Positions 10,133-36,193 of a stretch of DNA of 46,968 bases are shown here, one piece after another. A program made the translations under genes and the position numbers. Numbering within the stretch: the stretch's first letter is position 1; each line of letters starts with the position of its first letter. The stretch spans positions 1 through 46,968 of the forward strand of contig JAUCBJ010001697.1 in assembly GCA_032718475.1 (NCBI GenBank), read 5' to 3'. Below the pieces are notes generated by a model. It saw only the letters and a program-made list of their open reading frames with translations, was not told the DNA's origin and searched no databases. This stretch comes from Nemertoderma westbladi. Its lineage: Eukaryota > Animalia > Xenacoelomorpha.

Positions 10133-10169
10133 AAATTATTTAACATTAATATTTTGTATTAAACTTCAG

Positions 10170-16581: not shown

Positions 16582-17299
16582 TAAGGCTCTTTATTGGCGA
16601 CGACCAGGTTACACACGAGATGACTTCTCTTCGAAAATGTCGGCGCTAAGCACTTCATTATGATTATACACAACCCCGACAATGAAGATAAGTCTTGTGT
16701 TTTTAACTTGCAATCAACTCCTTAACTTCATTTTCTGTCCTAATAATTCTCATGAATCGATTTATCTTCGAGCAAATTACCCCTCCTGTATGCCGTTATA
16801 CCAGTTGATGTCCAGAAGACGAGAGAGAAGCTCAACCCTATTTACTGTAGAAAATAAATATTTTTAGTAGTTTTTAGTTTGTATTGTTCCTATAGTTAAA
16901 TATATTAATAGTAGCAAGCTGCGTGGACATGACTGTTTAACTGCTTTATGTTCCTTTCAAAATAAATTGTATTATGATTGGGGCCTTGTCAAAGCAAGCT
17001 AAAATATAATCCCAAAAAAATGTTCTATTGCATTTACATATGTTCACTACTAAAATTTTCGTTATATTTTATAATTTTTTGAGCAAAATAATAATATTTC
17101 CGACTGGATTATATTTATATAATTAACTTTGTGTGCCAGAGATTGTTTAAAATGGCATTAAAACATAGACGTTGTTAATTAATTAATTAATTTCGCTGAG
17201 TTTTCATGTTCGGGACTTGGCGATTTTATCTTTAGTATTTTTCAGGTTTTCTCTGAAGAGGAATTGATTGGTCACTATTTTACTTTATACTTACTTAAT

Positions 17300-17548
17300 A
17301 CTTATACTTATACTTATGAATGGGAGAATCTTTTAGGCTCGTTAAGCCAAGGAATGCCTGTTCACCACCAGGGGTGATCTTCCACAGGAAACTCTTCCAC
17401 TCTGTTTCCCAAGTTGCCTTGGTTCCCATTTATCGACCACTGAAGGATGAAAGCCGGGGTTGGGCTAGGCTGCAGCATTTAAAGCACTGTGCCCAAACAG
17501 TGCTGCCCCATCTAGGGATTGAACCAGGGCTCCCTAATCGGAAGCCCA
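17300..17548 (-). mobile_element. 5'-truncated tRNA-derived SINE with an RTE-type (TAAGTA)n tail
   Basis: B-box GGTTCAATCCC on the minus strand (~17515-17525); (TACTTA)n at 17300-17317; ~28-bp flanking direct repeat GTCACTATTT(T)ACTTTATACTTACTTAAT at 17271-17299 and 17549-17576. Confidence 0.7.
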
Positions 17549-18126
17549 GTCACTATTTACTTTATACTTACTTAATTACAATGACAGGATACGATGTGGT
17601 ATTTCGAAAATTGCAGTTCGTGTCAAAATTTTGATTATCGATTTCACAAGATGTCGAAGAAGAAAAAAGTTTCCTATAGTAGTTGTAATTTACCAATTAG
17701 ATTAATTTCACTAAATATTATTTTCTACGCAATCTAAGCAGCTATTAATTTTCTGATTGCTATACAAAATAATTAATTATACAAAAAACACAAGTAATAT
17801 AACTTAGTGACTTTAATTACCGTATCGACTTGAACAAGAGCTCGTGGGTAAGTTACCTACCGTATTATTATGTAGTAGCCCAGTCCTAACCAACCACAAT
17901 TTTTAAATCCTATCTTCAATTTTTCGAATCATTTCGTATTTTCTCAAAATATAATTCGTATCATATCCTATCCCTTCTTACTAGTTCTAAAATATAAACT
18001 TACGCTATCGCTAGTTCCAATCTGTTATATTCGTTCTGCTTATAGTTACTGTCCTTATTTCCCAATCATGTGCTCGTTGTTTGCTGTGGTCACCGAACAC
18101 CGCATTACATATAGACTAGCACTTGA

Positions 18127-18408
<282 letters not shown>

Positions 18409-18744
18409 TAACTACTCTAACTAAGTTAATAGCTCGTTTTTTTCTAAGATTGATCAGTTTAATTCAAAGGATTTTAGATCCGAATTTCTCTTTTAATTCA
18501 TAATCAATCATAACTTCAAGTAATTCGTTAAAAGATATATGTCAGATGTCTCCAGCTCCACAGTAAATGGAAAAGATCAATTAAATCAATACGGCAATTG
18601 TTGTTACCAGTGTATCATCTTCACTGCGACATTAGAGATTTATAATGAATGACGCAATCAAACAGAACAGCTTTGTGCTTTTACAATCAGTGAAGGTTAT
18701 GGTAATACAATACACTGTCCATATTATTATTGCAAGTATGCACC

Positions 18745-18850
18745 CGATGGCAGGGTTGGGCGCTACGCTACTCCTATCCCAAGATTTGCTCCCAGTAATT
18801 TAACTAATTTTATCGACCCCAGTAGATGAATGGCTGAGTGGACTGAGTGG
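18745..18850 (-). mobile_element. Degenerate SINE-like fragment containing one copy of the 36-bp satellite monomer
   Basis: GGCAGGGTTGGGCGCTACGCTACTCCTATC resembles the 33331-35153 monomer. TTTATCGACCCCAGTAGATGAA resembles TTTATCGACCACTGAAGGATGAA in the SINE at 17300-17548. Confidence 0.45.
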
Positions 18851-18955
18851 AAAACATGGTAATAGGGTGGGACAGTTAGTAACAGGTGGGACTGGGACAG
18901 GCCTTTAACGGGCTATAACATCTTGTAATATTTTATAGCTATGGGATGTTTGTAC

Positions 18956-19097
18956 GGTGGCTGATCTTTGCCAATTAATTTTTTTTTCAGAAGTTCTCCA
19001 TGACGTCATTATTTTTGGTCGACCATAAATTATGACGTCATGGAGAACTTCTGAAAAAAAAAGTAAAAAAATAATTAATTGGCAAAGATCAGCCACC
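18956..19097. repeat. Near-perfect 142-bp palindrome (foldback or collapsed MITE)
   Basis: Arms GGTGGCTGATCTTTGCCAATTAATT...TTCAGAAGTTCTCCATGACGTCAT are mirrored around a central GGTCGACC. TA lies one base outside each end. Confidence 0.85.
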
Positions 19098-19306
19098 ATA
19101 GGTTTGCCACGATCATAGCTGTAATTTTCTAATCACCATCTTTCAGAAAATATATAGTTTAATGAGGTTTGGAACAAAAAATATTTTGACAAAATTTGGC
19201 TAATATTTTGTAGAATGAACCACCATATATAGGCCTAACCAGATAGCAGTATTGTAATAGTAGCGAATACCTGTATCGGTACATATTGTTACTCTCAGTC
19301 TGTCGT

Positions 19307-19480
19307 GGCACCCATGGGCCATGGTAACATTTACGTCTACGGGAAAGGCACCCATGGGCCATGGTAACATTTACGTCTACGGGAAAGGCACACATGGGCC
19401 ATGGTAACATTTACGTCTACGGGAAAGGCACACATGGGCCATGGTAACATTTACGTCTACGGGAAAGGCACTCATGGGCC
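19307..19480. repeat. 40-bp tandem repeat, about 4.3 copies
   Basis: Unit GGCACCCATGGGCCATGGTAACATTTACGTCTACGGGAAA. Confidence 0.95.
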
Positions 19481-20486
19481 ACGTGGAAGAAAACATTTTA
19501 TTAACAAAAAATATTTTATTTTAATTTTGGCCGCACTGGGCCATGTTTTGGCCCAGTAAGGCCATATTTTTTTATTATTTATGTATTATATTATAATTTC
19601 TTAGATAACAAATCCTAAATTTCGCTTTGGCCTTAATGGGCCACCATACACACCACTAATAAATTATAAATACAGCAATAGGCATACTCCAATACTACAA
19701 TGCAATAGATGGATAGGGCCGAGTGGTTGAGTTGCATAGCATAGGGAGCCAGGAGCCAGGCAATATACCAAGATGGCAAAATTGCAAACAGCATTTTATC
19801 AATGTTCATGATCATGAATTTAAGTAATTATAATGGTAAAATACGCGCAAGATTATCCGTTTTCAATTGATATAAGCCACGTGTGAAAATATTGAGATGA
19901 AATGTGTATTTAAATGGATCTAGAATCACCCTCCATAGAAACCAATATAAGAAATTATCAGAGCACCGCCTAATGACTTCAAATATGTAGCAGCCAAGCC
20001 AATCACAGCCGATTTTCAAAGTTGGCTTCCCGGGCTTACTTAAACCCGCATTTCGACCATGTGTTTTTACAAAAAAAACACCCCCCCACTTGATTCATGG
20101 CACCTTGTCACCCCTTATTCGATTGTTTCTAGCACAACAATTTTTTCGCGCACCAACACTATTAGTTTGTTTGGGTTTGTTTACAGAACTGTAAACGCCC
20201 AAATTAACCCAACAGTCATATGTTGTTACTCGATGCACCTCACACCTGATTCACTTTAAAATCTGTCTCAATATCCGACGCCTTTTCAACCACTCTCTGA
20301 CTGCTGCCTATGCCGTTTTTGCAACCACATCAGCTATAGCTGTTTGCGACGGCAGGTCCGTTAGTACACGCTTCCCGAATATACTTTGTTTACCGTCCGT
20401 ATGATGAGCCTATAGGATTAAAACAATTGAAATTGATTATTCCAAATAAATTTATATGCCGAATTAATTTTTGTTATTTATAATTG

Positions 20487-20720
20487 TATGGGGCTTTCTG
20501 GACAAACGCAAGGCAGCGCAATGAAAATTAGCGCAACGAGAATTTCTTATATTGTAATTGTATTAGAATAGAATTCGGTTGTTTAAATACAGACTGACAC
20601 ATCCATGGTAACCAGAATTCACTATAATAAATAATAAACGGCGCGAATTGAAATAGAACTATGAGTAATTCTCGTTACGCCAATTTTCATTGCGTTGTGT
20701 ATTTTCTATAAATCCCTGTA
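20487..20720. mobile_element. Old degenerate MITE
   Basis: CAGCGCAATGAAAATTAGCGCAACGAGAATT is inverted against AATTCTCGTTACGCCAATTTTCATTGCGTTG; the right end reads CCCTGTA. Confidence 0.55.
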
Positions 20721-21822
20721 TGGCACATTGGCACACATCTTAGATCTAGGCAATGCAATCTTACTGCTGTACAGCTGTAGGCCTACTGCAGTACTGACAT
20801 CAGGATAAGGCCATCTAAATAACAGGCCATGACAAGGACCTAACCTGCAAAATTATCGTAGGCTGACTGCTGAATTATCAAATATTATATTTTCCACGAA
20901 TGCAGGGTCCATATTTAAAAGAAGATGACTAGATTTTCGTAAATAATTTAATTGAAACAGTATTTAATAATTAATTAATTAATTATCGCTCGATTTCCTG
21001 CAGCTTATTATGTTTGTTTGTGGCTGCCTCTGGCTATATTTGTGGCAGGAATGTTTGAACGCTAATAAGTCAGTCAATCATGGATGAAATGGAACCAAAC
21101 TTGGTGCACATGTAGTCTATAAAGAAATTAGAAATTATACACACAGACAGACTTATACAGTTCCTCTGTCTGCCGCTACGGGGTGAATTGACAGAAACAT
21201 AAAAATAGCAGTAATTATAGAACCAACCATCAGATTCATCTGAAATTGGGTAGTAGTAGCCTACGAGCATTTCTTAATCAGAAAGCCTACACACAGACAG
21301 ACTTTTACAGTTCCAGTCTGCCACTAGGGGGAATTGTTAAAGCTCCAGTTCAACGTGCTTAGCACGGTTTAATAAACAATAAATTCATTTTTTATTCATT
21401 TACAGTAATTATAACCAGTGAAATGCAATGTATTCTATTTTCTAGTAAAATCGAGAGACATGGGGGGGGGGGACGCAAATCCCATCTTGGCGAAATAATA
21501 TCCCGCCTCAATGTTAAATTCTCAATTTAGGGAAAGGAGCCAGGTTACAGTGGCACGATATTTTAACCAAAACAATAAACTTTGTTTATTATTTGTTTAC
21601 AATAAACAGTTTTATTTTTGAGAGTAATCAGCTGTTATTTGCGTCCAATTTCCCCTGGAGAGGGATGAATTTTTATTGCGTCCAGTTTCCAGAAAAATAT
21701 ATTAATTCCAGTTTTCAGAAAAATATCGGCTGTAAATACAGTTTTACACAAGATGACAAGGGCGTTACATCCTGTTGTATAAGAAATATAAAAATGTAAC
21801 ACAAAATACAAGACTATCGTAG

Positions 21823-22097
21823 TGTAGCGATACTGTATGCGGGACTTAGGAGATATACAGTAGTGGCGTCCCTAGTTGCCTAGCAACGGACGATGTGGAG
21901 TTTTACATACAGACTGTCCATCTATCATCTTTTGGTACCGTACACTGCAGTACCGGCACGCTGTGTGCTATACGGATGACTGCGGCCCTATCCCGGTATA
22001 TCTATATCTTTACAGTAGCAATGCATTGCTAACTATTATTATTATAATACATAATAACCCGCGCTTCGATTTATTCATTGAGAATAACGCCGCTACA
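21823..22097 (+). repeat. 5' LTR
   Basis: TG...CA ends; identical by eye to 26171-26445. Confidence 0.97.
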
Positions 22098-22099
22098 TT

Positions 22100-22110
22100 T
22101 GGTGACCCGG
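22100..22110 (+). promoter_or_regulatory. Primer-binding site, probably tRNA-Trp
   Basis: TGGTGACCCGG starts 2 nt after the LTR. Its first 9 nt match the usual tRNA-Trp PBS TGGTGACCCC. Confidence 0.65.
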
Positions 22111-22139
22111 CACTCGCAAACTTCCGACCTCATCATACC

Positions 22140-22904
22140 ATGCCCCTTGAAGCTGCCGACATCCAGGCTTTGGCCGAGGCCATTCAAGGCCTCAACGTGG
22201 CTCCAGCGGCTGCCGCCGCAGCCGCCCCGGCCGCCGCTGTATCTGCAGTCTCCCTCAAGCTCCCCACCTTCTGGACCAACGACCCAGACTTGTGGTTCAC
22301 TCAAGTGGAGGCACAATTTGACATTCGAAACATTACTGCAGACAAGACGAAGTTTCACTACATCGTCTCTGCACTCGATAATGCCACTGCCGCCGAGGTC
22401 CGGAAAATCGTCATGGAACCACCCACCACCGATGCCTACCCTACCCTCAAGAAGGCCCTCACGGAAGCCTTCGGCCGCACTCAGGCCTCGAAGGATGCCG
22501 AACTTCTCCGTCTCTCCGGCATCGGGGACCGCCGCCCAACCGCTCTCCTCCGGCACATCCAGGGCCTGAACGCCGACCCCGAGACACTCCTTCGGGCGTT
22601 ATACTTGCAGCTTCTCCCAGTGGAGGTGCGACGCGTCCTTGCCGGTTCGAACAAAACGAACATCGAGGAGTTGGCCAAAGACGCAGACCGCATCATGGAG
22701 GCCTCGAACCCAGTGTCGGGCGTCTCCGCTGTCCGCCGCCCCGGAGCACCACGTTCCTCGTCATCGTCTCAGGAACTCTGTTACTACCACAGCCGGTTCG
22801 GGGATTCTGCTCGCAACTGCGAACACGGCCGATGCCCGCTAGCCTCCCTCGTCAAACGTTCCGGCCCCTCCAAACCGCCGGGAAACGCCGGCGCCGGCCG
22901 CTAG
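22140..22904 (+). CDS. gag: Gag (254 aa) with CHCC zinc knuckle
   Basis: First ATG after the PBS (MPLEAAD...); conserved LKLPTFW..DPDLWFTQVEAQF block; CYYHSRFGDSARNCEHGRC is the CHCC-type motif typical of CsRn1-clade elements. Confidence 0.9.
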   Translation: MPLEAADIQALAEAIQGLNVAPAAAAAAAPAAAVSAVSLKLPTFWTNDPDLWFTQVEAQFDIRNITADKTKFHYIVSALDNATAAEVRKIVMEPPTTDAYPTLKKALTEAFGRTQASKDAELLRLSGIGDRRPTALLRHIQGLNADPETLLRALYLQLLPVEVRRVLAGSNKTNIEELAKDADRIMEASNPVSGVSAVRRPGAPRSSSSSQELCYYHSRFGDSARNCEHGRCPLASLVKRSGPSKPPGNAGAGR

Positions 22905-22934
22905 TCCCTGCGGTTGGCGTCTCCAGGAAGGGGC
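22880..22934 (+). promoter_or_regulatory. Programmed -1 ribosomal frameshift signal (G_GGA_AAC plus stem-loop or pseudoknot)
   Basis: X_XXY_YYZ heptamer at 22880-22886 in gag frame, and pol is in the -1 frame. Stem 22890-22901 pairs with 22910-22921 (3 G-U pairs). Confidence 0.75.
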
Positions 22935-25900
22935 AGAAAACTATTATGGTAGAGGACAGCCGCACTGGCTGCACCTTCCTAGTGGACTGCGGAGCCGAGG
23001 TCTCCGTCATTCCGGCCTCGGCTGCCGACCGTGCAGCCCGAACCCGCTCTCCTCCCCTTCTCGCAGCTAACGGCTCTTCAATTTCGACGTGGGGAGACCG
23101 TTCCTTCTCCTTCCGCCTCGGTAAGGCTACACCCAGGGATTTCTCTTTCGACTTCGCTGTCGCCGACGTCCCCAAGGCCATCCTCGGGGCGGATTTCTTC
23201 GCCGAAAATAACCTGGCCATCGACCTCCGCAACCGCCGCCTCATATCTCTCGACGATGGAACTATCTTCCCCGCTTTCGCCTCGTCCTTCCATGGAGGTA
23301 TCTCAGGCCTCCACCTTGCCGCCATCTCAGCTTTCGACCGGATAATCGACGAATTTCCGGAGGTCGTCATTCCCCGATTCGAACTCGGCGATGTCAACAA
23401 GCACGGCATCGAGCATCATATAGTCACGGAGGGACCACCACTTAATGCTCGCGCCCGCCGGCTCGACCCCGAGAAGCTGGCTGTTGCGAAGGCCGAGTTC
23501 GCAAAAATGGAAGAACTCGGAATAATCCGGCGTTCTTGCTCCCCATGGGCATCTCCGCTTCACATCGTGTCAAAACCCGACGGTGGATCGCGGCCTTGTG
23601 GCGATTTCCGCCGACTGAACGAGGCGACAGTGGGGGACCGCTACCCGCTCCCCCACATCCAGGACTTTAACGGTGGCCTGGCTGGCAATGTCATATTTTC
23701 AAAGATAGACCTCGCCCGCAGCTACCACCAGGTCCCCGTCCATGCCAGCGACGTCCCCAAGACGGCCATTATCACTCCCTTCGGCCTCTGGGAGTTCTTG
23801 AGAATGCCTTTTGGCCTTAAGAACGCCGCCCAGGCTTTCCAGAGGCTGATGGATGCCGTCCTTCGTGGTATACCATATGTTTTCGTCTACCTCGATGACA
23901 TACTCGTGTCCAGCAAGTCCGAGGCCGAACACATCGACCACCTCCGCCATGTCTTCCGCCTCCTCGCAGACAACGGCCTCGTCGTCCAGCGGAAGAAATG
24001 TGTGTTCGGCCAGACAGAGATCGAATACCTCGGCCACCTCGTGTCCGCCACCGGCGTTCGGCCACTGCTCTCCAAAGTTAAAGCAGTCCTAGAGTTCTCC
24101 ACCCCGACAGACAAGGCCGGGCTACAGCGATTTCTGGGGATGCTGAACTACTATCACCGTTTCCTCCCCAACATCGCAGGATGCCTCGCCCCTCTCCACG
24201 AGGCCACCAAGTCCACCCCTGGAGCGTTTGCTTGGAACTCTGAGTGTGCCAACGCATTCGCCGCCGCCAAGCGTGCCCTCGCCGACGCCGCTCTATTGTG
24301 CCACCCCCGGACATCCGACTTCCTGTCTGTGTCGTGCGACGCCTCCGGCACCGCCATAGGAGCCTCCCTCGATCAGCGCGCATCGGCTTCAGAGGACTGG
24401 CAGCCACTCGCTTTCTTCTCCCGCAAGTTGTCCTCGGCCGAGAAGAAATACAGCGTTTTTGACCGCGAGCTCCTCGCCATGTTCGCGGCCATCTGCCATT
24501 TCCGACATTTCGTCGAGGGCCGGCCCTTCATTATCTACACTGACCACCGCCCTCTGACCTTCGCATTCGCCAACACCGCCGAGCGTTCCCCCCGCCAGAC
24601 ACGCCACTTGGCCTTTGTGTCGGAATTCTCTACCGACGTCCGACACATTTCCGGTAAGGTCAACGTCGTCGCCGACGCTCTTTCCCGGTCCGACGACTGC
24701 ACACCCGCCTCTAACCCACTAGTCGGTGCTCTCCTCGCGCCCGAGGTCGACTTTGCCGCCCTAGCCGCGGCTCAGACAGCCGCCTCGGTCGAGATCTCGG
24801 CCTACAGGACATCCATTTCCGGCCTCCACCTGGCCGACATACCATGCCGCGACTTCACGGTCTTGTGCGACACCTCGACGGGCCGGAACCGCCCCGTCGT
24901 CCCGGATGGCTGGCGCGGCCGGATCTTCGAGGCCATCCATGGCCTCTCACATGCCGGTCCAAAGCCCACCATCCGCGCCATCTCCGAGCGTTTTATCTGG
25001 CATGGGATGAAGAAAGACGTGCGCCGACGCTGCCTCGAGTGCGCCGCCTGCCAGGCCTCCAAGGTCGGCCGCCATGTCCATGCGCCACTAGAAAGTCGCC
25101 CTGCCCCTGAGGCCCGATTCGAGAGCCTCCACGTAGACATCGTTGGTCCACTTCCACCATCGGAAGGCCACGGCTACCTATTCACAATCATCGACAGGTT
25201 CACACGGTGGCCTGAGGCCATCCCCATTATCGACGCCACCGCTGAGACGTGTGCCCGCGCACTTCTACGGGGCTGGATCGCCAGGTTCGGGATACCCGGG
25301 GACATCACCTCCGATCGCGGGGCGCAGTTTACCTCTCACCTGTGGGCCGAGCTTCACAACCTCCTCGGCATCTCGGCCTCCACTACTACATCCTACCACC
25401 CACAGGCGAATGGGATGATCGAGCGACTCCATCGCCAACTCAAGGCATCGCTCAAGGCCCGCCTACATGGACCAAAATGGATGGACGAACTCCCACTAGT
25501 CCTACTCGGGATCAGGACGGCTTGGAAGGAGGACCCTGGCTGCTCACCCGCCGACCTCGTCTATGGCACCCCCCTCCACGTGCCTGGCGAGTTCGTGGGC
25601 CCTGGGTCCGCGCGAACAGAGACTCCATCCTCAGCTTTCGTCTCCGACCTCAAGGAACGCCTCAAGTCAGCTGTTCCCCCGCCGACAAACTTCCACGGCT
25701 CACCGTCAACCTCCCACATCCCGGCATCCCTGGCCTCGACAGGTTACGTGTATGTACGCCGTGGTGGTCATGTAGGACCTCTCAACCGCCCCTATGCTGG
25801 CCCCTACAAAATCATTAAGGTGGAGCCAAAAACTTTCCTCCTTGACCTCAATGGCCGCCTGGATCATGTCTCCATCGACAGACTGAAGATTGCCTTCATT

Positions 25901-26116
25901 CCGCGGCCGCCCACGATCCCACCGGCACCGTTGGCATCTTCGTCAGATCCCGACCTTCCGGCGCCTTCCTACGCTGCCGTAGCAGCCACTCCAGCACGAC
26001 ATACCAGTCCTTACGCCAGGCCCAAGGCCCACTCGAAACCTCCCACCACGACGTCGTCCACGTTTCAGACTCGTTCCGGCCGACAGGTCCGCCGTCCGGA
26101 AAGATATACCACCTAA
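22880..26116 (+). CDS. pol: Pol polyprotein (aspartic protease, RT, RNase H, integrase), probably made as Gag-Pol by frameshift
   Basis: FLVDCGAEVS; WASPL, RPCGDFRRLN, MPFGLKNA, YLDD; CDASG, DRELLA, TDHRPL, NVVADALSR; HGLSH...CAAC, HVDIVGP, SDRGAQF, NGMIER, YAGPY, TRSGR. Confidence 0.96.
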   Translation, partial: GKRRRRPLVPAVGVSRKGQKTIMVEDSRTGCTFLVDCGAEVSVIPASAADRAARTRSPPLLAANGSSISTWGDRSFSFRLGKATPRDFSFDFAVADVPKAILGADFFAENNLAIDLRNRRLISLDDGTIFPAFASSFHGGISGLHLAAISAFDRIIDEFPEVVIPRFELGDVNKHGIEHHIVTEGPPLNARARRLDPEKLAVAKAEFAKMEELGIIRRSCSPWASPLHIVSKPDGGSRPCGDFRRLNEATVGDRYPLPHIQDFNGGLAGNVIFSKIDLARSYHQVPVHASDVPKTAIITPFGLWEFLRMPFGLKNAAQAFQRLMDAVLRGIPYVFVYLDDILVSSKSEAEHIDHLRHVFRLLADNGLVVQRKKCVFGQTEIEYLGHLVSATGVRPLLSKVKAVLEFSTPTDKAGLQRFLGMLNYYHRFLPNIAGCLAPLHEATKSTPGAFAWNSECANAFAAAKRALADAALLCHPRTSDFLSVSCDASGTAIGASLDQRASASEDWQPLAFFSRKLSSAEKKYSVFDRELLAMFAAICHFRHFVEGRPFIIYTDHRPLTFAFANTAERSPRQTRHLAFVSEFSTDVRHISGKVNVVADALSRSDDCTPASNPLVGALLAPEVDFAALAAAQTAASVEISAYRTSISGLHLADIPCRDFTVLCDTSTGRNRPVVPDGWRGRIFEAIHGLSHAGPKPTIRAISERFIWHGMKKDVRRRCLECAACQASKVGRHVHAPLESRPAPEARFESLHVDIVGPLPPSEGHGYLFTIIDRFTRWPEAIPIIDATAETCARALLRGWIARFGIPGDITSDRGAQFTSHLWAELHNLLGISASTTTSYHPQANGMIERLHRQLKASLKARLHGPKWMDELPLVLLGIRTAWKEDPGCSPADLVYGTPLHVPGEFVGPGSARTETPSSAFVSDLKERLKSAVPPPTNFHGSPSTSHIPASLASTGYVYVRRGGHVGPLNRPYAGPYKIIKVEPKTFLLDLNGRLDHVSIDRLKIAFIPRPPTIPPAPLASSSDPDLPAPSYAAVAATPARHTSPYARPKAHSKPPTTTSSTFQTRSGRQVRRPERYTT

Positions 26117-26158
26117 CATTCATCGCCACTATTAGGGATTTATCGTGTTACCACACTT

Positions 26159-26167
26159 GAGGGGGGG
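26159..26167 (+). promoter_or_regulatory. Polypurine tract
   Basis: GAGGGGGGG ends 3 nt before the 3' LTR. Confidence 0.8.
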
Positions 26168-26170
26168 TTA

Positions 26171-26445
26171 TGTAGCGATACTGTATGCGGGACTTAGGAG
26201 ATATACAGTAGTGGCGTCCCTAGTTGCCTAGCAACGGACGATGTGGAGTTTTACATACAGACTGTCCATCTATCATCTTTTGGTACCGTACACTGCAGTA
26301 CCGGCACGCTGTGTGCTATACGGATGACTGCGGCCCTATCCCGGTATATCTATATCTTTACAGTAGCAATGCATTGCTAACTATTATTATTATAATACAT
26401 AATAACCCGCGCTTCGATTTATTCATTGAGAATAACGCCGCTACA
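26171..26445 (+). repeat. 3' LTR
   Basis: Identical by eye to the 5' LTR. Confidence 0.97.
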
Positions 26446-26816
26446 GTAGTAAATAGAATCGTACTGACAAGCAAGCAATTCCTTAGTATTTCTTCCTCCG
26501 TTAATCGCATCTTGTATCTTGATGCAACTCGGCTGATCCAGATCGACCAGATACCAGGATACATCGGACTGTCGGAGCGTTTCAGACATTAACTGAGTAA
26601 TGGAGCGACATTTGTGGATATTTCAGATGGTTTTATAATAAATAAGGGGATTCAATGTTAAAACAAATGGATGATTCCAAACCCCAATATACCTAACACT
26701 GTAAACTGTAACAAAGCTTAGGCTGTTAGTTAGGCACACACAGTTTAGGTAACATTATCAGCACAGTCAGCCTACGACTGTACGATAATTTTGAAGGCTA
26801 GGTCCTTGTCATGGCC

Positions 26817-28104
26817 TGTGGGGCGAGCCACGAAGTTGGCGGAGCCTTAGCGAATTGACACTGTTAGGGGGTGGGTCAATTTATGCAAATAGTTGTCGTC
26901 GTCGTCGTCGTCGTTGTCGTCGTCGTCGTCGTCGTTACGATTTTGACATGCTAATAACTTTGTCGGATTTAAAGCTGCCAAGTTGAAAATTTGTAGGTAT
27001 CAATATGAGCAAAAGTTGAGATTTTTGAGAGACTTTCAGACACCATCAGTGCAATGGTCTCCCGCTAGAGGGCCACATGTCTAAACATTAAATGCCCTCC
27101 CATTTCTTTGCTTTTAATCCGTTTAAGCTGAAACTTGGCAGATATGTATTAGACCATTAGCTGTGACTTTCAAAGGAGGCGAATCCATCTGCAGTTCTCC
27201 AGTCTGCCGCTAGAGGGCCAAAGGTCTGAAAGTGAAATCGTTGTCGTCGTTACGATTTTGACATGCTAATAACTTTGTCGGATTTAAAGCTGCCAAGTTG
27301 AAAATTTGTAGGTATCAATATGAGCTAAAGTTGAGATTTTTGAGAGACTTTCAGACACCATCAGTGCAATGGTCTCCCGCTAGAGGGCCACATGTCTAAA
27401 CATTAAATGCCCTCCCATTTCTTTGCTTTTAATCCGTTTAAGCTGAAACTTGGCAGATATGTATTAGACCATTAGCTGTGACTTTCAAAGGAGGCGAATC
27501 CATCTGCAGTTCTCCAGTCTGCCGCTAGAGGGCCAAATGTCTGAAAGTGAAATCGTTGTCGTCGTTATGATGACATGCTTATAACTTTGTCGAATTTAAA
27601 GCTGCCAAGTTGAAAATTTGTTTTGTTGAAAATCAGTTCAACAGTCACCCGCTATAGGACTACTTTATGCCTGAAAGTGAATAGATTCTCCCGTCTCATT
27701 GATTTTAATCAGTTTAAGCTGAATCTTGCCATATATTCTGGACCACATGCTGCGTCTTTGTGGGGGGGGGGGGGGGGGGGGGAGATTTAATCGGTCTGCC
27801 GCTATACGACGAAATTTCTGAAAGTGAGATCCGTCTCTCATTTCGTTATCCGTTATTCAAGATGAAACTTGGCCGATGTACGTATGTACTATTCATCCAT
27901 AGGCTGTGTCTTTGTGGGGCTGGAGACCCTAATCCATCTTCAGTTCTCACTATACCGCTAGTGTCAGAAATGTCTGAATAGAAATGAAAGAGGTAAAAAG
28001 TGATTAGGCGAAATCTGCTTAAAATTTGCTAATACAGTAATACTTTCGAATTAGTACTTAAATTAAATTTAAGTCACGTGCTGCGCGAAGGCCCCACTTC
28101 GTGT
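26817..28104 (+). mobile_element. Non-autonomous Helentron/Helitron2-like element with a (GTC)n microsatellite and an internal 315-bp tandem repeat
   Basis: 5' end TGTGGGGCGAGCCACGAAGT (small hairpin) and 3' end CGTGCTGCGCGAAGGCCCCACTTCGTGT, whose GCCCCAC is inverted to the 5' end. No clear TSD. The same two ends occur at 31548-31867. 315-nt period at 26935/27250/27565. Confidence 0.6.
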
Positions 28105-28298
28105 TGTTTAGATGGCCTCGCATGTCAGTGTGACACTCTGACAGTGCCTACTGCCCTATCAATTAATGCTCTCGCCTACCTCTGTACCTTTAGTCTGGTA
28201 GTGCAGTAGTGTCAAGTGGTACCCTACCGGTACCATCCTACAGTCCTAGGGCCTAATATACCGGTTACCTGGGTTAGCGGTACCAGTTGCCTACTGAC

Positions 28299-29180
28299 AT
28301 GGGCGATCAGAGCGGACTCAACGTGTTGGCTCAGTCCACGGGGACTTCTGGGAGCGTACTGGAGCAGGGTGGCGTAACCCTAGTTGCGGGCGACGCAAAC
28401 ACAAACAACGGCGCACAGCCGCCGCCGTACGTAACTCCCGAGATCAACGTCCACCAACTCAACCAATTCTGGCAGAAGCAAATGACTGAAGTGCGGCAGC
28501 TAAACGGGAACGATTTCAAAATTCAAGATCTTCCTTTGGCTCGGATTAAGAAGATAATGAAACTAGACGAAGATGTAAAGATGATATCGGCCGAAGCTCC
28601 AGCGTTCTTCTCCAAGGCCATCGAGATATTTATAAAGGAACTTACGATGCGAGCTTGGGTTCATACGGAAGATAACAAGCGGCGAACGCTGCAGCGAAAC
28701 GATATCGCCATGGCTATCAGCAAATACGATCAATTCGACTTCCTTATTGATATAGTTCCTCGGGAAGAGATTCGTCCGTCTCAACCGGAGGAGTTCACCC
28801 CATCCGGGACGGCGGCCGCTCCCGGCTCCGACGTTAAGTATTACTTCCACATGGGGTCGCAGCAGGGAGCGACGGGGGCTGTTACTACCAGCGCGGCCCC
28901 CAGTAGCGTGCCGTCGGTAGCCGCTGCCCCAGCGGCCACCGGGGGGCAACAGACTTTGGTGCTGCCAGGGGGGCAGCAGTTGGTCATCCCCCAGGGGTCC
29001 TTGCAGCAGGGGGCTGAGGAGTCTGGTGGGGGGCAGCAGGGGGTGCAGTATCTGCGGTTGGCTAACGGGCAGTTGTTGCAGCTGGGGGGCACCGGGGGCA
29101 ACCAGTTGCTGCAGTTAGGAGCGGCCGGGGGGGCGGGGCAGTTGATGTCGGTTGATGGGCAGCCGTCCCCTGGAGAGTGA
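28299..29180 (+). CDS. NFYC: Nuclear transcription factor Y subunit gamma (NF-YC), intronless, 293 aa, nested in DDX46 intron 5
   Basis: Complete histone fold [26 protein letters not shown]...[44 protein letters not shown], followed by a Gln/Gly-rich hydrophobic activation-type tail. ATG in GACATGG; no stops or frameshifts; AATAAA at 29514 and 29739. Confidence 0.95.
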
Positions 29181-30592
29181 GGGGGCGGGGGCTGCCCCCC
29201 TGGGGAGGGGGGGGGGGGGGGGGCTGGCTACGGTATGCCATGTTACTTTTATAAAGTATTATAACTCATTTCATACAGACTTGGTATTTAATCTAAGATG
29301 TTCAGATATTTTTAATTGTTACTTTTTTTATATGTTAGTTAATTATAGTGTAACATACCGAAAATACGGTTTATTTAACTCTATGTCCGACTGAGACCCC
29401 AACAGGGTGGAAGGGGGACTCAATCTGTCTGAAACTATTAGCCAATTAGGAACAAGAACCTTAATATGATTCAAATTCAAAATAAGTTATAGTTATTTAC
29501 ATCGATATTATCTAATAAAATGGAAAGTTTACAAGTATTATTATTGGATGAGTTTCATAAGGTCGCTATGTGCAACATTTTTTTGTAACTACCGCACTGT
29601 TAACGGAAATGTTTGGTTTATATTCCACTATTTATAGAATATACTCGTAGAATTGGTACAATTGATGTCAGGTTTGTATTAATGTTGTTATTTACGTTGG
29701 TTGTGTAGCATATTATTGTTATACTGGCATATTATACTAATAAAAGTTATAGTAAAATTTGTTTGTTATAATAAAGTTAAAAATTCGGAATCGAATCCAT
29801 GGGAAGTCCTGAAGAGTTAGAGAGAAATCTCAAAGGTATCATTCAAGTCTTATTTACCTTAATTTACTAGATGTATTGTTTGCGATTCGTTGTAAGTACC
29901 AAATTTGGTACTAAAAAACTACCAGTTGTTGTACCTAGGTTATCTATGGTATCAGTATTATATTATTATGTTATACGTAGTATATCGTTTAAAACATTAA
30001 ATTATGGTTATATTATAAAATAAAAGTATTTCTTTATCTCATCCATCGTGGGTTATAATTCGAATTCTCTAACTATTGGTTGACAGGATTGCGTGGCTAG
30101 TAGCCCTCGATGCAGCAGATTGACTGAAGTTGATTGACAGATGAGGCTGAAGCTGATTGGCAGCTGACGTGGGCGAACTATGCTGAGAGAACAAGAAAGG
30201 GACCATTCAGAATACATTCCTTACTATAGAAAATATTATCGCAAAGTAAACAAACGCAATATATGAAACTATATTAACTAATATCCTAATAGAGTTTTCA
30301 GTTACCACACAGTTTTATACTATCATTACCGGTTCCGGTCGCTACTTGTTTATATTTGTATTAAAAGTATCTCTTACACTGCTTTTCCTTTGATTTGTTA
30401 CACTAACAAACGAAGTGAGCGAGTGTTAATGACGCAGCTATGGTCACAACACTGTAAAGTACTTAAAATATAAATGTAGTTTATTCCAAAATATGAAAAC
30501 TTAATATGAAACTAATGCAAATTCCAGCTGGACAACTGGAATACTTAGAATATAATTCCATTACTACCATTTGCAGCTACTTTACATAAATT

Positions 30593-30777
30593 AAATGTTC
30601 CAGAATATTCCAATAAATAAAATGTTCCAGAATATTCCAATAAATAAAATGTTCCAGAATATTCCAATAAATAAAATGTTCCAGAATATTCCAATAAATA
30701 AAATGTTCCAGAATATTCCAATAAATAAAATGTTCCAGAATATTCCAATAAATAAAATGTTCCAGAATATTCCAATG
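30593..30777. repeat. 27-bp tandem repeat, about 7 copies
   Basis: Unit AAATGTTCCAGAATATTCCAATAAATA. Confidence 0.95.
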
Positions 30778-30889
30778 AACGGCAGAAGTCGACGTTGTGA
30801 ACGACTACCCATAGCGGTAATACCACAAAACGAAGTTGCAAAGGCTGTATCCTATACGAGTAAGAGTAACCATTTTTTTTTTCTTGCAG

Positions 30890-31124
30890 GTTATGCAAAT
30901 CGTGAATAACATTCGTCCTTCCCGACAAACCGTTATGTTTAGCGCTACATTCCCTCGGAGCATAGAAGCCTTAGCTCGCAAGATTCTACAGCGCCCCATA
31001 GAGGTTCTTTGCGGAGGTCGCAGTGTTGTATGCAGTGACGTTGAGCAACACGTGGTGGTGTTAGAGGATCACGATCAAAAGTTCCTCAAATTATTGGAAT
31101 TACTTGGCATGTACCAGGATCAAG
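30890..31124 (+). CDS. DDX46: DDX46 exon 6 ([11 protein letters not shown], motif III)
   Basis: Acceptor tttttcttgcAG|GTT; donor G|GTGGGA (phase 1). Confidence 0.95.
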
Positions 31125-31547
31125 GTGGGATATCTTTTTTTATTTGAGTTTAATTTGCTACGATATTAGCGTCGTATTTCCCGCTGTCCCCGGGATTAAA
31201 CATTGGCAATGGTTTACGTCCACCCTTGAAGTCCGTCGACTGGTTGTGTCGTCGCCATCCCCATCCTATTGTTTCCCAATTTGAGTTTCATTAATTGGGG
31301 CAACACAATGTACATTTTTTGTAAGTTTTATAATATTGTATAAACGATGAGAGTTGTTTGGCCTTCAACTTTATTCAATATTATAATGAGTATGAACGCA
31401 GCCTTGGGGATGCCCTGTCAGCTGTCACCGATTGGTATTTTTGCCATCGACATCAATGTGTAACATTATAAATAACTGAGAACTTTATTTATATAATGAA
31501 ATAAACAATAATTTACAAGCGCAGTAAATATAGTCTCAGTAATAATA

Positions 31548-31867
31548 ACACGTTCGTGGGGTCTTCGCGCAGCACGACGTGAGCAAAGCCTTTAGCATAT
31601 GGGTACCATTAACGAGTTGTCTGCCGTTAGTCAGAAGTCTTCAACACAATATACTCGTCCTCCTCTTGTGCCTCGTTGCGTTCGTTCGTTTTTGACGAAA
31701 CTTCAGATTCTTTCTAAACTTTTGACGGACTACATACATACCAAGTTTCGTTTAATTTCATCAAGGAATAACCGAGTTATTAGCGTTCAAAAATTTACGA
31801 CGAAACAGACAACTCCCCAATGGCACCCATATGCTAAGGCTTCGCTCACTTCGTGGCTCGCCCCACA
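31548..31867 (-). mobile_element. Short (320 bp) member of the same Helentron-like family as 26817-28104
   Basis: The reverse complement starts TGTGGGGCGAGCCACGAAGTGAGCGAAGCCTTAGC and ends CGTGCTGCGCGAAGACCCCACGAACGTGT. Confidence 0.6.
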
Positions 31868-32397
31868 ATAATTCAGTAATTAATTATATTCAAGATGCCC
31901 GACGTTCCTCACATTGCACCAAACTTTAGGACCACTGCAGTGTACTCATCAGAGCAAATATGTACCATCTGAATATCGGACCTCAAGTCGGCAACTGGTT
32001 AGGTTTTCTTCTATTGGCGTTGACCTAGATGTATCCCCAGTGGAAAAGGAGATTCTGGGGGAAATAGTTCAGAAGAAGCGCCCACACATGTTCCAATCCT
32101 AGACTTACAACTCCATATCTAAATGATATTTGAGCCACTTTTTGGGAGGATTATGGCGGTGTTGTGAGGAGCGGAACCTTCTTGCTGAAACCTTTGACTG
32201 GTTATTGGATAATGTTTAGACTTATATTTTACTTCTCAGCTTTTATACAATGATGTTTCCCTTTTATATGTGGGCAGTATATATTTAATCCCGTCCCCAA
32301 TTCTAAACTTTACATCCAATGCTGCTCTACTAACCTAAATGCGTCTCACCAGCCTACATGAATGAGTTATATAAAGTGACTTTATTACTTGTTTTAG

Positions 32398-32688
32398 GTT
32401 CGGTTCTAGTGTTTGTTGAACGACAGGAGTTTGCGGACCAGTTGCTACGCGATCTCATGAAGGCGAGTTACCCCTGTCTGTCTCTCCACGGTGGAGTAGA
32501 CCAGTACGACAGGGATTCTATCATAAACGACTTTAAGAGCGGTGTCACTCCGTTACTAGTGGCAACCTCGGTCGCCGCTAGGGGCCTCGATGTTAAGAAA
32601 CTCATTCTGGTTGTCAACTACGACTGCCCCAACCATTATGAGGATTATGTGCATAGAGTGGGCCGCACTGGTAGAGCTGGCAACAAAG
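32398..32688 (+). CDS. DDX46: DDX46 exon 7 (motifs IV-VI: [25 protein letters not shown])
   Basis: Acceptor cttgttttAG|GT; donor G|GTTAGT (phase 1). Confidence 0.96.
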
Positions 32689-32835
32689 GTTAGTGCGGGA
32701 GATGTAGATGCTACGTCTGTGTTAGCGCATCAAACGGGGCCTTAGAGATACTCGGAGCTGGCAACAAAGGTTAGTGCGGGAGATGTAGATGCTACGTCTG
32801 TGTTAGCGCATCAAACGGGGCCTTAGAGATACTCG
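32674..32835. repeat. Perfect 81-bp tandem duplication spanning the exon 7 splice donor
   Basis: 32674-32754 equals 32755-32835 (GAGCTGGCAACAAAGGTTAGT...GATACTCG). Confidence 0.95.
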
Positions 32836-32933
32836 ACAGACACAGAATCCCGATTATGAGTCACACACAGTATCTTATTGGGTCATCATTAATTTGGGTA
32901 TATTTGTTCTATTGTACCTGTTTATCTCTACAG

Positions 32934-33155
32934 GTTGGTCTTATACGTTTATAACACGCGATCAAGCCAATTACGCCGGGGATATAATTCGCGCCTTGGA
33001 GTTGAGTAAAAACTCCGTACCATTAGACCTCGAGGTGCTATGGAAACAACATGTAGATGAGCAGAAAGCTCAGGGTAAAAGCGTTTCTAAGAACAAGGGA
33101 TTTTCAGGGAAGGGTTTCCGATTCGACGATATGGAGAAGGATATGGCGAAAGAAG
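32934..33155 (+). CDS. DDX46: DDX46 exon 8 (GWSYTFIT...GFSGKGFRFD)
   Basis: Acceptor tatctctacAG|GT; donor G|GTTAGT (phase 1). Confidence 0.94.
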
Positions 33156-33330
33156 GTTAGTCGTCGTGTATCTCCTCTACCGAATCATTTATTAATGAAT
33201 TTAAATCCCTATTCATCATGGAGTCAAAAATAAGTGCATTCGATTTAAACGGTCGATTTATTGGGTATAAGCAGGCAAGCAAACAGTCGGTAGAGGCCGG
33301 AGGCGACCCGAAGGCTCCTCTTTCGATAGC

Positions 33331-35153
33331 TGCTACCCGAAGGTAGGGGTGGGCGCTACTCCTATCTGCTACCCGAAGGTTGGTGTGGGCGCTACTCCTA
33401 TCTGCTACCCGAAGGTAGGGGTGGGCGCTACTCCTACCTGCAACCCGAAGGTTGGTGTGGGCGCTACTCCTATCTGCTACCCGAAGGTAGGGGTGGGCGC
33501 TACTCCTATCTGCTACCCGAAGGTAGGGGTGGGCGCTACTCCTATCTGCTACCCGAGGGTAGGGGTGGGCGCTACTCCTATCTGCTACCCGGGGTAGGGG
33601 TGGGCGCTACTTCTTACTGCTACCCGAGGGTAGGGGTGGGCGCTACTCCTATCTGCTACCCTAAGGTAGGGGTGGGCGCTACTCCTATCTGCTACCCGAA
33701 GGTATGTGTGGGCGCTACTCCTATTTGATGCCCGAAGGTAGGGGGCGCTACTCCTATCTGATGCCCGAAGGTAGGGCGCTCTACTCCTATCTGCTACCCG
33801 AAGGTAGGGGTGGGCGCTACTCCTATCTGCTACCCGAAGGTAGGGGTGGGCGCTACTCCTATCTGCTACCCGAGGGTAGGGGTGGGCGCTACTCCTATCT
33901 GCTACCCGAAGGTAGGGGTGGGCGCTACTCCTGTCTGCTACCCGAAGGTATGTGTGGGCGCTACTCCTATCTGATGCCCGAAGGTAGGGGGCGCTACTCC
34001 TATCTGATGCCCGAAGGTAGGGGGCGCTACTCCTATCTTATGCCCGAAGGTAGGGGGCGCTACTCCTATCTGATGCCCGAAGGTAGGGGGCGCTACTCCT
34101 ATCTGATGCCCGAAGGTAGGGCGCTCTACTCCTATCTGCTACCCGAAGGTAGGGGTGGGCGCTACTCCTATCTGCTACCCGAAGGTAGGGGTGGGCGCTA
34201 CTCCTATCTGCTACCCGAGGGTAGGGGTGGGCGCTGCTCCTATCTGCTACCCGAGCGTAGGGGTGGGCGCTACTCCTATCTGCTACCCGAAGGTAGGGGT
34301 GGGCGCTAATCCTATCTGCTACCCGAGGGTAGGGGTGGGCGCTACTCCTATTTGCTACCCGAAGGTAGGGGTGGGCGCTACTCCTACCTGCTACCCTAAG
34401 GTAAGGGTGGGCGCTACTCCTATCTGCTACCCGAATGTATGTGTGGGCGCTACTCCTATCTGATGCCCGAAGGTAGGGGGCGCTACTCCTAACTGCTACC
34501 CGAGGGTAGGGGTGGGCGCTACTCCTGTCTGCTACCCGAAGGTATGGGTGGGTGCTACTCCTATCTGCTACCCGAAGGTAGGGAAGGGCGCTACTCCTAT
34601 CTGCTACCCGAGGGTAGGGGTGGGCGCTACTCCTATCTGCTACCCGAAGGTAGGGGTGGGCGCTACTGCTATCTGGCTATCCGAAGGTAGGGGTGGGCGC
34701 TACTCCTTTCTGCTACCCGAAGGTAGGGGTGGGCGCTACTGCTATCTGGCTATCCGAAGGTAGGGGTGGGCGCTACTCCTTTCTGCTACCCGAAGGTAGG
34801 GGTGGGCGCTACTCCTATCTGCTACCCGAAGGTAGGGGTGGGCGCTAGTCCTATCTGATGCCCGAAGGTAGGGGTTGGCGCTACTCCTATCTGCTACCCG
34901 AAGGTAGGGGTGGGCACTACTCCTATCTGCTACCCGAGGGTAGGGGTGGGCGCTACTCCTGTCTGCTACCCGAAGGTATGTATGGGCGCTACTCCTATCT
35001 GATGCCCGAAGGTAGGGGGCGCTACTCCTAACTGCTACCCGATGGTAGGGGTGGGTGCTACTCCTATCTGCTACCCGAAGGTAGGGATGGGCGCTACTCC
35101 TATCTGATACCCGAAGGTAGGGTGCGCTACTCCTATCTGCTACCCGAATGTAG
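33331..35153. repeat. 36-bp G-rich minisatellite (GCTACCCGAAGGTAGGGGTGGGCGCTACTCCTATCT)n with 33-bp variants, about 50 copies
   Basis: Read directly; produces the 12- and 11-residue periodic spurious ORFs in the track. Confidence 0.97.
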
Positions 35154-35417
35154 GCTAATGTTTGCTCCGAGTAATAAATATTCAACTGGACCTCACTGGA
35201 TGTAGTAGACCTAGACACCATCAAAACATAACTTGGGAATACTTCTCGACATTTTCCACAACAATATTAACACTCACAAAATGGGCTTAGCTGGAAAAAA
35301 ATATCTAAGTCCGAAAGTATATAAAATTAAGTCAATTTTCAGGTACACATATTCACGTGTGCAGCAAAACAATCCATTTTGCTCAACTCAACATTATTAT
35401 TATTTTACATTTGACAG

Positions 35418-36193
35418 GGAAGAAGATCCAAAAACTCGCACTCGGTTTGGGAGACAGTGATGATGAGGATGAGGGAGCGGGCAATCTCGACCAAAAGATC
35501 GAACAGATGTACTCGGCGAAGCGTTCGGTAACCAAGGTGGCGGCACCACAGCTGGGCCAACCCGGGGACCCTGGCAACAGCGGGGTCGTGTTACCGCCGG
35601 CGTCCGAACCCAACCCGGAGAAGCTGGAGTTGGCACGGCAACGCGCCACGCAGCTCCAACTCTCGAAACTCGGACGCACAACAGCCGCAGTCGACGCCAT
35701 CAAACAGGGTTACCTTCCCGCCGATGCGATCCTCAAAGGAACGGTTTACAACCTCGCCTACTCGAGTAAAGCAGTCGCGGAACATCTCGCGGATAAACTC
35801 AATGCGAAACTCGGTTACACACCGGAGGAACGAGAGGAAACAACCGAGAACGAGGCCGAATCAGCCGAGGTCTTTACTAAGTACGAAGAGGAACTCGATA
35901 TCAACGACTTCCCTCAGACGGTTAGACTCAAGTTGTGCACTAGGGACTCTCTGTGTAATATTATGGAATATTCCGACGCATCGATAACTCTGAAAGGGCA
36001 GTTCTACGCGCGGGGTAAAGAGCCACCGGAGGGCGAGAAGAAACTTCACTTGTTGATAGAGAGTTGGGAGGAAGTGGCGGTGGGTAAGGCTAAACAGGAG
36101 ATCACTCGGAGGATTAAAGATGAACTCATGAGGCTTCAGAATTCTGCATTCCAGCCAAACAGAACAGGGGTGTCTCGATATAAAGTTTTATAA
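35418..36193 (+). CDS. DDX46: DDX46 exon 9 (KKIQKLALGLGDSDDED, KH-like domain YEEELDINDFPQ, terminal RYKVL)
   Basis: Acceptor ttttacatttgacAG|GG; TAA ends at 36193; ATTAAA at 36242. Confidence 0.95.

What the first reader, a model, noticed from the sequence alone, without database searches (positions are those of the whole stretch)
28299..29180. Intact intronless NF-YC nested on the SAME strand inside a DDX46 intron
Seen: a full 293-aa NF-YC ORF lies between the exons encoding motif II (DEAD) and motif III (SAT) of DDX46, co-oriented, with its own AATAAA signals. Known: most nested genes are antisense to their hosts, vertebrate NFYC is multi-exon, and both genes are normally essential and widely expressed. 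Inference: every DDX46 transcript must pass the NF-YC poly(A) sites, so splicing of intron 5 competes with cleavage. NF-YC could come from its own promoter, from trans-splicing at the pyrimidine-rich acceptor ending 28193, or from the host pre-mRNA. Since DDX46 itself acts in branch-site/U2 engagement, this could be an autoregulatory switch. It is the best candidate for a new system in this window.
Basis: partly seen in the sequence, partly recalled or inferred. Interest (0 to 1): 0.8.

Follow-up and report, generated by a model that had tools for sequence, protein, structure and literature searches.

The report
NF-YC gene nested inside DDX46 intron
In an unidentified animal, an intact gene for the transcription-factor subunit NF-YC, with no intron in its coding sequence, lies on the same strand inside the largest intron of the splicing-helicase gene DDX46; it is likely an ordinary relocated gene with its own promoter, a layout well known from flies and mammals, rather than a new regulatory switch.

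Summary
A 293-aa NF-YC frame (28299-29180, +) lies in the 12,520-base intron 5 of an open 9-exon, 1,274-aa DDX46 and keeps 71 of 74 near-invariant columns. The 250 bases before its ATG resemble the DNA before DDX46's ATG more than any of 85 other non-coding windows, so it likely has its own promoter.

The switch idea is weak. DDX46 RNA passes 22 AATAAA and a sense LTR element before reaching NF-YC. NF-YC's three AATAAA are barely above background (P 0.05-0.14). No DDX46-NF-YC fusion reads through the 28194 acceptor. The proposed loop would be destabilising.

Same-strand nesting is known: 29% of fly nested genes, 73% of those single-exon, often in lethal hosts (PMC3814207). Interference with the host is shown for H13/Mcts2.

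Still open: 28194 is the most pyrimidine-rich of 226 YAG sites in the intron and lies past three upstream ATGs, so trans-splicing or a 5' UTR intron remains possible. No genome, RNA run or close relative was available. The scan saw the same layout before in another animal (CEP290 in PLPBP).

The parts
28299..29180 (+). NF-YC coding sequence, 293 aa, one exon: histone-fold core, then a G/Q-rich tail that keeps the YYF and QYLR motifs
28407..28763 (+). Histone-fold region with the NF-YC C-terminal helix (aa 37-155)
   Evidence: Pfam aa 37-140; PDB 1n1j_B aa 61-155
28104..28298 (+). Likely core promoter and 5' UTR of NF-YC, rich in GTAC/GCCTA/CCGGT words like the DNA before DDX46's ATG
   Evidence: 28199-28298 scores above all 247 control windows
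28160..28196 (+). Pyrimidine tract and AG ending 28193, overlapping a TTAGTC initiator-like word at 28190: either a 3' splice site (5' UTR intron or trans-splice acceptor) or a start site
   Evidence: initiator consensus recalled
29181..29800 (+). Likely 3' UTR with AATAAA at 29514, 29739 and 29770; 29739 has the best U/GU-rich downstream stretch of the three
18370..30889 (+). DDX46 intron 5, 12,520 bases, phase 0, GT-AG, the gene's largest intron
18194..18369 (+). DDX46 exon 5 (motifs Ib and II, DEAD)
30890..31124 (+). DDX46 exon 6 (motif III, SAT)
8206..36193 (+). DDX46/Prp5 host gene, 9 coding exons, 1,274 aa, open
7833..8205 (+). DDX46 upstream region: two CCAAT-type boxes (7833, 7889), then the GTAC/GCCTA-rich stretch
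21823..26445 (+). LTR retrotransposon (Gypsy-type domain order, recalled) in intron 5, sense to both genes; identical 275-base LTRs, GTAG target duplication
26818..28103 (.). Interspersed repeat (helentron-like ends, label recalled) that splits the DNA upstream of NF-YC; a short copy lies inverted near 31555-31868
20742..20873 (-). Inverted duplicate of NF-YC's upstream DNA (matches 26758-26819 plus 28101-28183 across the repeat insertion)

Best explanation
A conserved NF-YC gene with an unbroken coding exon sits on the same strand inside DDX46 intron 5 and likely works as its own transcription unit, starting from a likely promoter within about 200 bases of its ATG and likely ending near the AATAAA at 29739, while DDX46 transcripts would splice over it. 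It likely arrived by retroposition or another relocation long enough ago to lose any poly(A) or target-site scar. The expected interplay with the host is the ordinary one for nested pairs: some transcriptional interference and occasional early termination, held down by fast intron definition and U1 protection (general knowledge, recalled). Shown: position, open frame, conservation, upstream word signature, absence of a fusion frame. Inferred: promoter activity, expression, poly(A) site use, origin. Whether it is the only NF-YC of the genome is unknown.
For: Purifying selection: 71 of 74 columns conserved in at least 95% of 120 homologues are kept, while 15 of 20 variable core columns differ from the majority (Fisher p 3e-11 on 15/5 against 2/70). 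pN is 0.05-0.12 against saturated pS 0.86-1.06 versus 9 contigs with animal-type NF-YC. Tail motifs YYF and QYLR are kept. Own 5' signature: a 4-mer model trained only on DDX46's upstream 300 bases scores NF-YC's upstream 250 bases at 0.162 against -0.227 +/- 0.064; 0 of 85 windows and 0 of 500 shuffles reach it, and the reverse training agrees. Age at this site: upstream DNA has a local inverted copy with 12 mismatches in 72 aligned bases plus indels in the arm nearest the gene. No A-tract, and no direct repeat of 10 bases or more, between the flanks. Other animals' NF-YC genomic contigs L019, L025, L026 and L028 show introns in the coding sequence. The class is common.
Against: The signature is compositional and has one training example; it could mark 5' UTR or first-intron DNA rather than a promoter. 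No RRCCAAT box lies in 26446-28298, and a 1.3-kb repeat interrupts the upstream DNA about 200 bases before the ATG. The tract at 28193 is the best pyrimidine acceptor of the intron and skips three upstream ATGs, which fits a spliced 5' end from elsewhere. Conservation cannot separate a working gene from a very young dead copy. In flies nested genes are mostly narrowly expressed, so a broadly expressed pair is the less common case.
Confidence: 0.7

Rival explanations
1. NF-YC has no promoter of its own. Its mRNA is matured from the DDX46 primary transcript, either by spliced-leader trans-splicing at 28194 plus cleavage near 29739-29790, or by cis-splicing from a non-coding DDX46 first exon (Taf9/Ak6-like). 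Each transcript would then give DDX46 or NF-YC, not both.
For: 28194 is the only YAG of 226 in the intron with 16 of 20 pyrimidines and has no AG in the tract. No ATG lies between it and the start codon, while three lie just upstream. An unchecked note calls this genome a likely acoel, and 30.2% of genes are trans-spliced in the acoel S. roscoffensis (PMC9911081). Host-chimeric retrogenes exist (PMC4772013).
Against: The promoter-type signature is strongest directly before NF-YC. The tract is C-rich and ranks 173 of 653 under a model from the 8 T-rich DDX46 acceptors. The same spot reads as an initiator-like word. Splicing from any coding donor of exons 1-5 to 28194 meets a stop by 28254. Trans-splicing would work equally from NF-YC's own promoter. 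My tree did not place the animal and held no named acoel.
Confidence: 0.12
2. A young, silent retrocopy of an NF-YC gene elsewhere in the genome, not yet decayed.
For: Single coding exon where other animals have introns; the intron collects insertions, one with identical LTRs; the parent could not be sought.
Against: No poly(A) remnant and no target duplication. The 882-base frame is unbroken with 71 of 74 conserved columns kept, which limits neutral decay to a few percent (inference). It has gene-start-like upstream DNA, whose local duplicate is clearly more diverged than that.
Confidence: 0.09
3. One reading: DDX46 activity sets the race between splicing of intron 5 and cleavage at NF-YC's poly(A) site and so regulates DDX46 or NF-YC levels.
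For: DDX46/Prp5 acts in U2 engagement (recalled). Nested-gene transcription drives host intronic polyadenylation at H13/Mcts2 (PMC13309782). The cut would remove motif III onward.
Against: 22 AATAAA precede NF-YC, four intronic sites score higher and three tie with 29739 on a simple downstream U/GU count, and the three AATAAA are near background. The cut RNA could not translate NF-YC (stop 13 codons into the intron, 162 upstream ATGs). The loop has the wrong sign for homeostasis (inference). DDX46 was absent from all 80 NF-YC loci examined, though most are short or distant.
Confidence: 0.04
4. The nesting is an assembly error.
For: The intron is repeat-rich, with 99-100% identical repeats upstream of NF-YC; no reads could be laid.
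Against: Exons 5 and 6 are in order, in phase and open. The window has no N. The LTR element has a matching target duplication. NF-YC's upstream DNA has a diverged inverted copy 7 kb away in the same intron, which ties it to this locus. 28104-30585 is unique in the window apart from that copy and chance words of 22 bases or fewer.
Confidence: 0.04

Closest known systems
Same-strand single-exon nested genes of Drosophila (PMC3814207 and PMC5174743; passages read)
   Same: Short gene without coding introns, same strand, inside a long host intron; 72.5% of same-strand nested genes are single-exon, and 68 of 175 same-strand hosts have lethal phenotypes.
   Different: The fly nested genes are mostly narrowly expressed and often testis-biased; NF-YC is normally broadly needed (RNAi of planarian NF-YC is lethal, PMC11802806). 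Expression here is unknown.
H13/Mcts2 (mouse; PMC13309782, abstract and introduction read)
   Same: Retrotransposed gene with its own promoter in a middle intron of a host; nested transcription triggers host intronic polyadenylation.
   Different: Control there is by imprinted methylation, and a parent (Mcts1) exists; the companion paper places host cleavage upstream of the nested gene. No such effect is shown here.
Taf9 retrogene inside Ak6 (mouse; PMC4772013, passages read; lead from note e1-10608720)
   Same: A retrogene inside a host intron, transcribed on the host's strand; TAF9 is also a histone-fold transcription subunit (recalled).
   Different: Taf9 forms chimeric transcripts with host exons. 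Here splicing from DDX46 coding exons 1-5 to 28194 meets a stop, and NF-YC has its own gene-start signature.
Orphan retrogenes such as RNF113A, MARS2, TRMT12 (PMC4772013)
   Same: Intronless copies that do the essential job of a lost multi-exon parent.
   Different: Loss of the parent could not be tested here.

Membership tests
NF-YC (CBF-C/HAP5) | H2A-like histone fold with the NF-YC C-terminal helix, closest to NF-YC | tested here: met
   PF00808, PF00125; 1n1j_B E 1.6e-45; 71-88% core identity to 120 homologues; the named hits among them are NF-YC or unnamed/hypothetical proteins
NF-YC (CBF-C/HAP5) | Q-rich C-terminal activation region of animals | tested here: inconclusive
   Tail keeps YYF and QYLR motifs (105 and 62 of 120 references carry them) but is 14% Q and 19% G against medians of 28% and 7%
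NF-YC (CBF-C/HAP5) | Forms a trimer with NF-YB and NF-YA on CCAAT | not tested
   No partner sequence from this genome was available
DDX46/Prp5 | RS-rich N-terminus, DEAD-box core with all motifs, C-terminal KH-like domain | tested here: met
Same-strand nested gene | Wholly inside one host intron, same strand, no shared coding sequence | tested here: met
Same-strand nested gene | Both genes are transcribed | not testable with these tools
   No RNA holder was listed
Retrogene | Coding sequence lacks introns that orthologues have | tested here: met
   Introns seen in L019, L025, L026, L028; but at the host's density of 2.1 introns per kb an 882-base CDS lacks introns with P 0.16
Retrogene | Poly(A) remnant and target-site duplication (expected only for young copies) | tested here: not met
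   No A-rich 20-mer and no shared repeat of 10 bases or more; so retroposition is named as likely origin, not filed as fact
Retrogene | A multi-exon parent in this genome or an outgroup locus | not testable with these tools
   No whole genome held; no close relative found
H13/Mcts2-type interference pair | Nested transcription causes host intronic polyadenylation | not testable with these tools
   Needs 3'-end sequencing and promoter silencing
Host-chimeric retrogene (Taf9/Ak6 type) | Host exon spliced to the nested gene to give a translatable mRNA | tested here: inconclusive
   Coding donors to 28194 meet stops; in-frame AGs at 28278 and 28287 have only 10 of 20 pyrimidines; a non-coding host exon was not testable

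The most novel reading that the evidence does not exclude
The animal's only NF-YC has no promoter. It is cut out of the DDX46 primary transcript by spliced-leader trans-splicing at 28194 and cleavage near 29739, an 'operon inside an intron' in which each transcript yields either the splicing helicase or the transcription-factor subunit. The CCAAT pair at the DDX46 promoter (7833, 7889) would let NF-Y drive its own supply, and splicing speed would set the ratio.
Probability: 0.07. Interest if true: 0.75.

Novelty: new member of a known kind. Interest (0 to 1): 0.3.

Why it matters
As most likely read, it is one more same-strand nested gene, of modest interest because both partners are normally essential and broadly expressed, the case where interference theory predicts nesting should be rarest. 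If NF-YC is single-copy, the locus is a clean test of how an essential host tolerates an active sense gene in a 12.5-kb intron. If its mRNA came from the host transcript by trans-splicing, it would be an either-or processing choice between two essential genes, which I did not find in print (one search). The NF-YC/DDX46 pairing itself was not found in print.

Tried and rejected
Whole genome: none held, so NF-YC copy number is untested. Sequencing runs for 27900-31200: no RNA holder listed, so no reads were laid; this is no evidence on expression. Close relatives: the exact protein is not in the collection; the best 120 homologues reach at most 88% core identity; a lineage-specific degenerate pattern found 0 metagenome stretches; DDX46 exon 9 hits reach 45-47% identity over most of the exon. 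Synteny: 0 of 80 NF-YC loci held DDX46, but most are short transcripts or algal and plant contigs, and they are the best 80 of 488 confirmed in a scan that stopped at 35 of 64 parts. Taxon: a quick DDX46 tree (the careful search did not finish) put the window loosely with chordates, SH-aLRT 88, no starred set, no named acoel row. Rfam: 0 matches in the window, so no known snoRNA or spliced-leader gene. No second NF-YC remnant in the window. My first exon model was off by one base, corrected. The motif-density scan used motifs picked after seeing both regions and was replaced by the one-sided training. The T-weighted acceptor model and the pyrimidine count disagree on 28194; both are reported. 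The bacterial promoter scan does not apply to an animal. No fold or complex was run: the core is 76-88% identical to most homologues and matches solved NF-YC. Paper searches for the pairing: 1 unrelated plant paper; 0; 0; two searches were seen as listings only and gave nothing used. Supplements were not read; Hofstenia NFY orthologue tables (bioRxiv supplement, closed) might help place the animal.

Full report
Observation. The window holds one complete DDX46/Prp5 gene on the + strand. Nine exons with GT-AG introns join to an open 1,274-aa frame, 53% identical to lamprey DDX46 over 981 columns, with Pfam DEAD, Helicase_C and KH_12 in the expected exons. DEAD is in exon 5 and SAT in exon 6. Intron 5 (18370-30889, 12,520 bases) is the largest. 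Inside it, on the same strand, is a 293-aa frame at 28299-29180 that matches PF00808 and PF00125 and solved NF-YC at E 1.6e-45.

Is NF-YC a working gene? Against the best 120 homologues, 71 of 74 columns conserved in at least 95% of rows are kept. The exceptions are L to F at 103, K to R at 159, and one column in the poorly aligned tail. By contrast 15 of 20 variable core columns differ from the majority (Fisher p 3e-11; the references are mostly vertebrate). Over 78 core codons, pN is 0.05-0.12 and pS is saturated against 9 contigs with animal-type NF-YC. The tail is G-rich rather than Q-rich but keeps the YYF and QYLR motifs, so the whole protein lies in one exon. This shows selection along the lineage. 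It cannot exclude a very young dead copy, but no poly(A) remnant or target duplication of 10 bases or more was found.

Does it have its own start? A 4-mer model trained only on the 300 bases before DDX46's ATG scores the 250 bases before NF-YC's ATG at 0.162, against -0.227 +/- 0.064 for 85 other non-coding windows. None of these and none of 500 shuffles reach it; 5-mers and the reverse training agree. In 100-base steps the signal peaks at 28199-28298, above all 247 controls. The next-best window (20751) proved to be an inverted duplicate of NF-YC's upstream DNA: 20742-20873 aligns with 26758-26819 plus 28101-28183 once a 1.3-kb repeat is skipped. The arm nearest the gene has 12 mismatches in 72 aligned bases plus indels, so this upstream DNA has likely stood in the intron for some time, which also argues against a misjoin. 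The signature rests on one training example and could mark 5' UTR or first-intron DNA, so the promoter is inferred. No RRCCAAT box lies in 26446-28298, whereas DDX46 has two at 7833 and 7889 (P about 0.02 for a 400-base stretch).

The acceptor at 28193. By pyrimidine count it is the best of 226 YAG sites in the intron outside the LTR element and the CDS, 16 of 20, equal to the intron's true acceptor. Under a model from the 8 T-rich DDX46 acceptors it ranks only 173 of 653. No ATG lies between it and the start codon, and three lie just upstream. The spot also reads TTAGTC, an initiator-like word found twice, with related words, before DDX46 (consensus recalled). Splicing from any coding donor of exons 1-5 to it meets a stop by 28254, so no fusion protein results. 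It may be the end of a 5' UTR intron, a trans-splice site or a start site. An unchecked note calls the genome a likely acoel, and the acoel S. roscoffensis trans-splices 30.2% of its genes (PMC9911081, passages). My quick tree could not place the animal.

The poly(A) race. DDX46's introns hold 34 AATAAA, 22 of them before NF-YC. The three after NF-YC compare with 1.3 expected (Poisson P 0.14, shuffle P 0.048). The site at 29739 has the best downstream U/GU stretch of the three, but four other intronic sites score higher and three tie. DDX46 itself has no AATAAA within 1.8 kb after its stop, only ATTAAA. The same intron carries a sense LTR retrotransposon (21823-26445, identical 275-base LTRs, GTAG duplication) that the host RNA also passes. 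A host RNA cut after NF-YC would stop 13 codons into the intron and carry 162 ATGs before NF-YC. If low DDX46 slowed splicing and raised cleavage, DDX46 would fall further: the wrong sign for homeostasis (inference).

Origin. Genomic contigs L019, L025, L026 and L028, which carry animal-type NF-YC, show introns in the coding sequence. A gene between two helicase exons must have moved there (inference), so retroposition is likely. But the host has only 2.1 introns per kb, so an 882-base frame would lack introns with P 0.16 anyway, and a DNA-level move is not excluded. Copy number and synteny could not be tested.

Comparison with what is known. In D. melanogaster 71.3% of nested genes are antisense; of the same-strand ones 72.5% are single-exon, and 68 of 175 same-strand hosts have lethal phenotypes (PMC3814207, passages; similar in PMC5174743, passages). 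In mouse and human the orientation bias is slight and nested genes favour the largest intron (PMC11694760, passages and section 5). At H13/Mcts2, transcription of a nested retrogene drives host intronic polyadenylation (PMC13309782, abstract and introduction). Taf9 in Ak6 and orphan retrogenes show host-chimeric and parent-replacing retrogenes (PMC4772013, passages). NF-YC RNAi is lethal in planarians (PMC11802806, passages), and the acoel Hofstenia has one listed NFYC, induced by wounding (10.1101/2023.05.10.540286, passages). Searches for the NF-YC/DDX46 pairing and for a trans-spliced gene nested in an intron found nothing relevant. The scan holds no look-alike of this DNA but one similar layout in another animal.

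Verdict. A real, conserved, same-strand nested gene that likely has its own promoter: a new member of a known kind, interest 0.3. The bold reading, host-derived maturation by trans-splicing with NF-Y feedback, is not excluded (0.07) and is testable with one RNA data set.

Noticed in passing
window 21823-26445 (+): Full-length LTR retrotransposon in DDX46 intron 5, sense to the host, with identical 275-base LTRs, a GTAG target duplication, and overlapping gag-like and pol frames: a recent insertion in an essential gene.
   Followed up: partly
window 20742-20873 versus 26758-26819 and 28101-28183: Inverted duplicate of NF-YC's upstream DNA; the inner arm is almost identical (2 mismatches in 52), the outer arm more diverged (12 in 72). 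It could mark an inversion or give an antisense promoter-like stretch; unexplained.
   Followed up: partly
window 26818-28103 and about 31555-31868: Repeat family with short inverted sub-terminal words and a 3' hairpin, inserted next to TT (helentron-like, label recalled); the long copy has a 315-base internal tandem duplication.
   Followed up: partly
window 7833 and 7889: Two CCAAT-type boxes about 56 bases apart upstream of DDX46, so the host of NF-YC may itself be an NF-Y target.
   Followed up: partly
window 32674-32835: The last bases of DDX46 exon 7 with the splice donor are duplicated in tandem (81-base period, 2 copies), a two-copy version of the splice-junction repeats noted elsewhere in this genome.
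   Followed up: no
window 30060-30450: A GC-richer stretch after NF-YC's likely 3' UTR with an ATTGG box at 30075, TGACGT and CCGGTTCCGG words; it shares many 7-mers with DDX46's upstream DNA but is not high in the trained model.
   Followed up: partly
window 36194-38000: No AATAAA within 1.8 kb after the DDX46 stop; ATTAAA at 36242 is the nearest candidate signal.
   Followed up: partly
window 3468-6965, 33330-35154, 37935-39780, 30586-30776: Large minisatellites (34, 36, 23 and 27-base units); the 27-base one supplies six AATAAA just before DDX46 exon 6.
   Followed up: no
window 699-2109 and 36982-37440 (-): Fragments of LINE-type reverse transcriptase genes on both sides of DDX46 (Pfam RVT_1 for 699-1694).
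   Followed up: no
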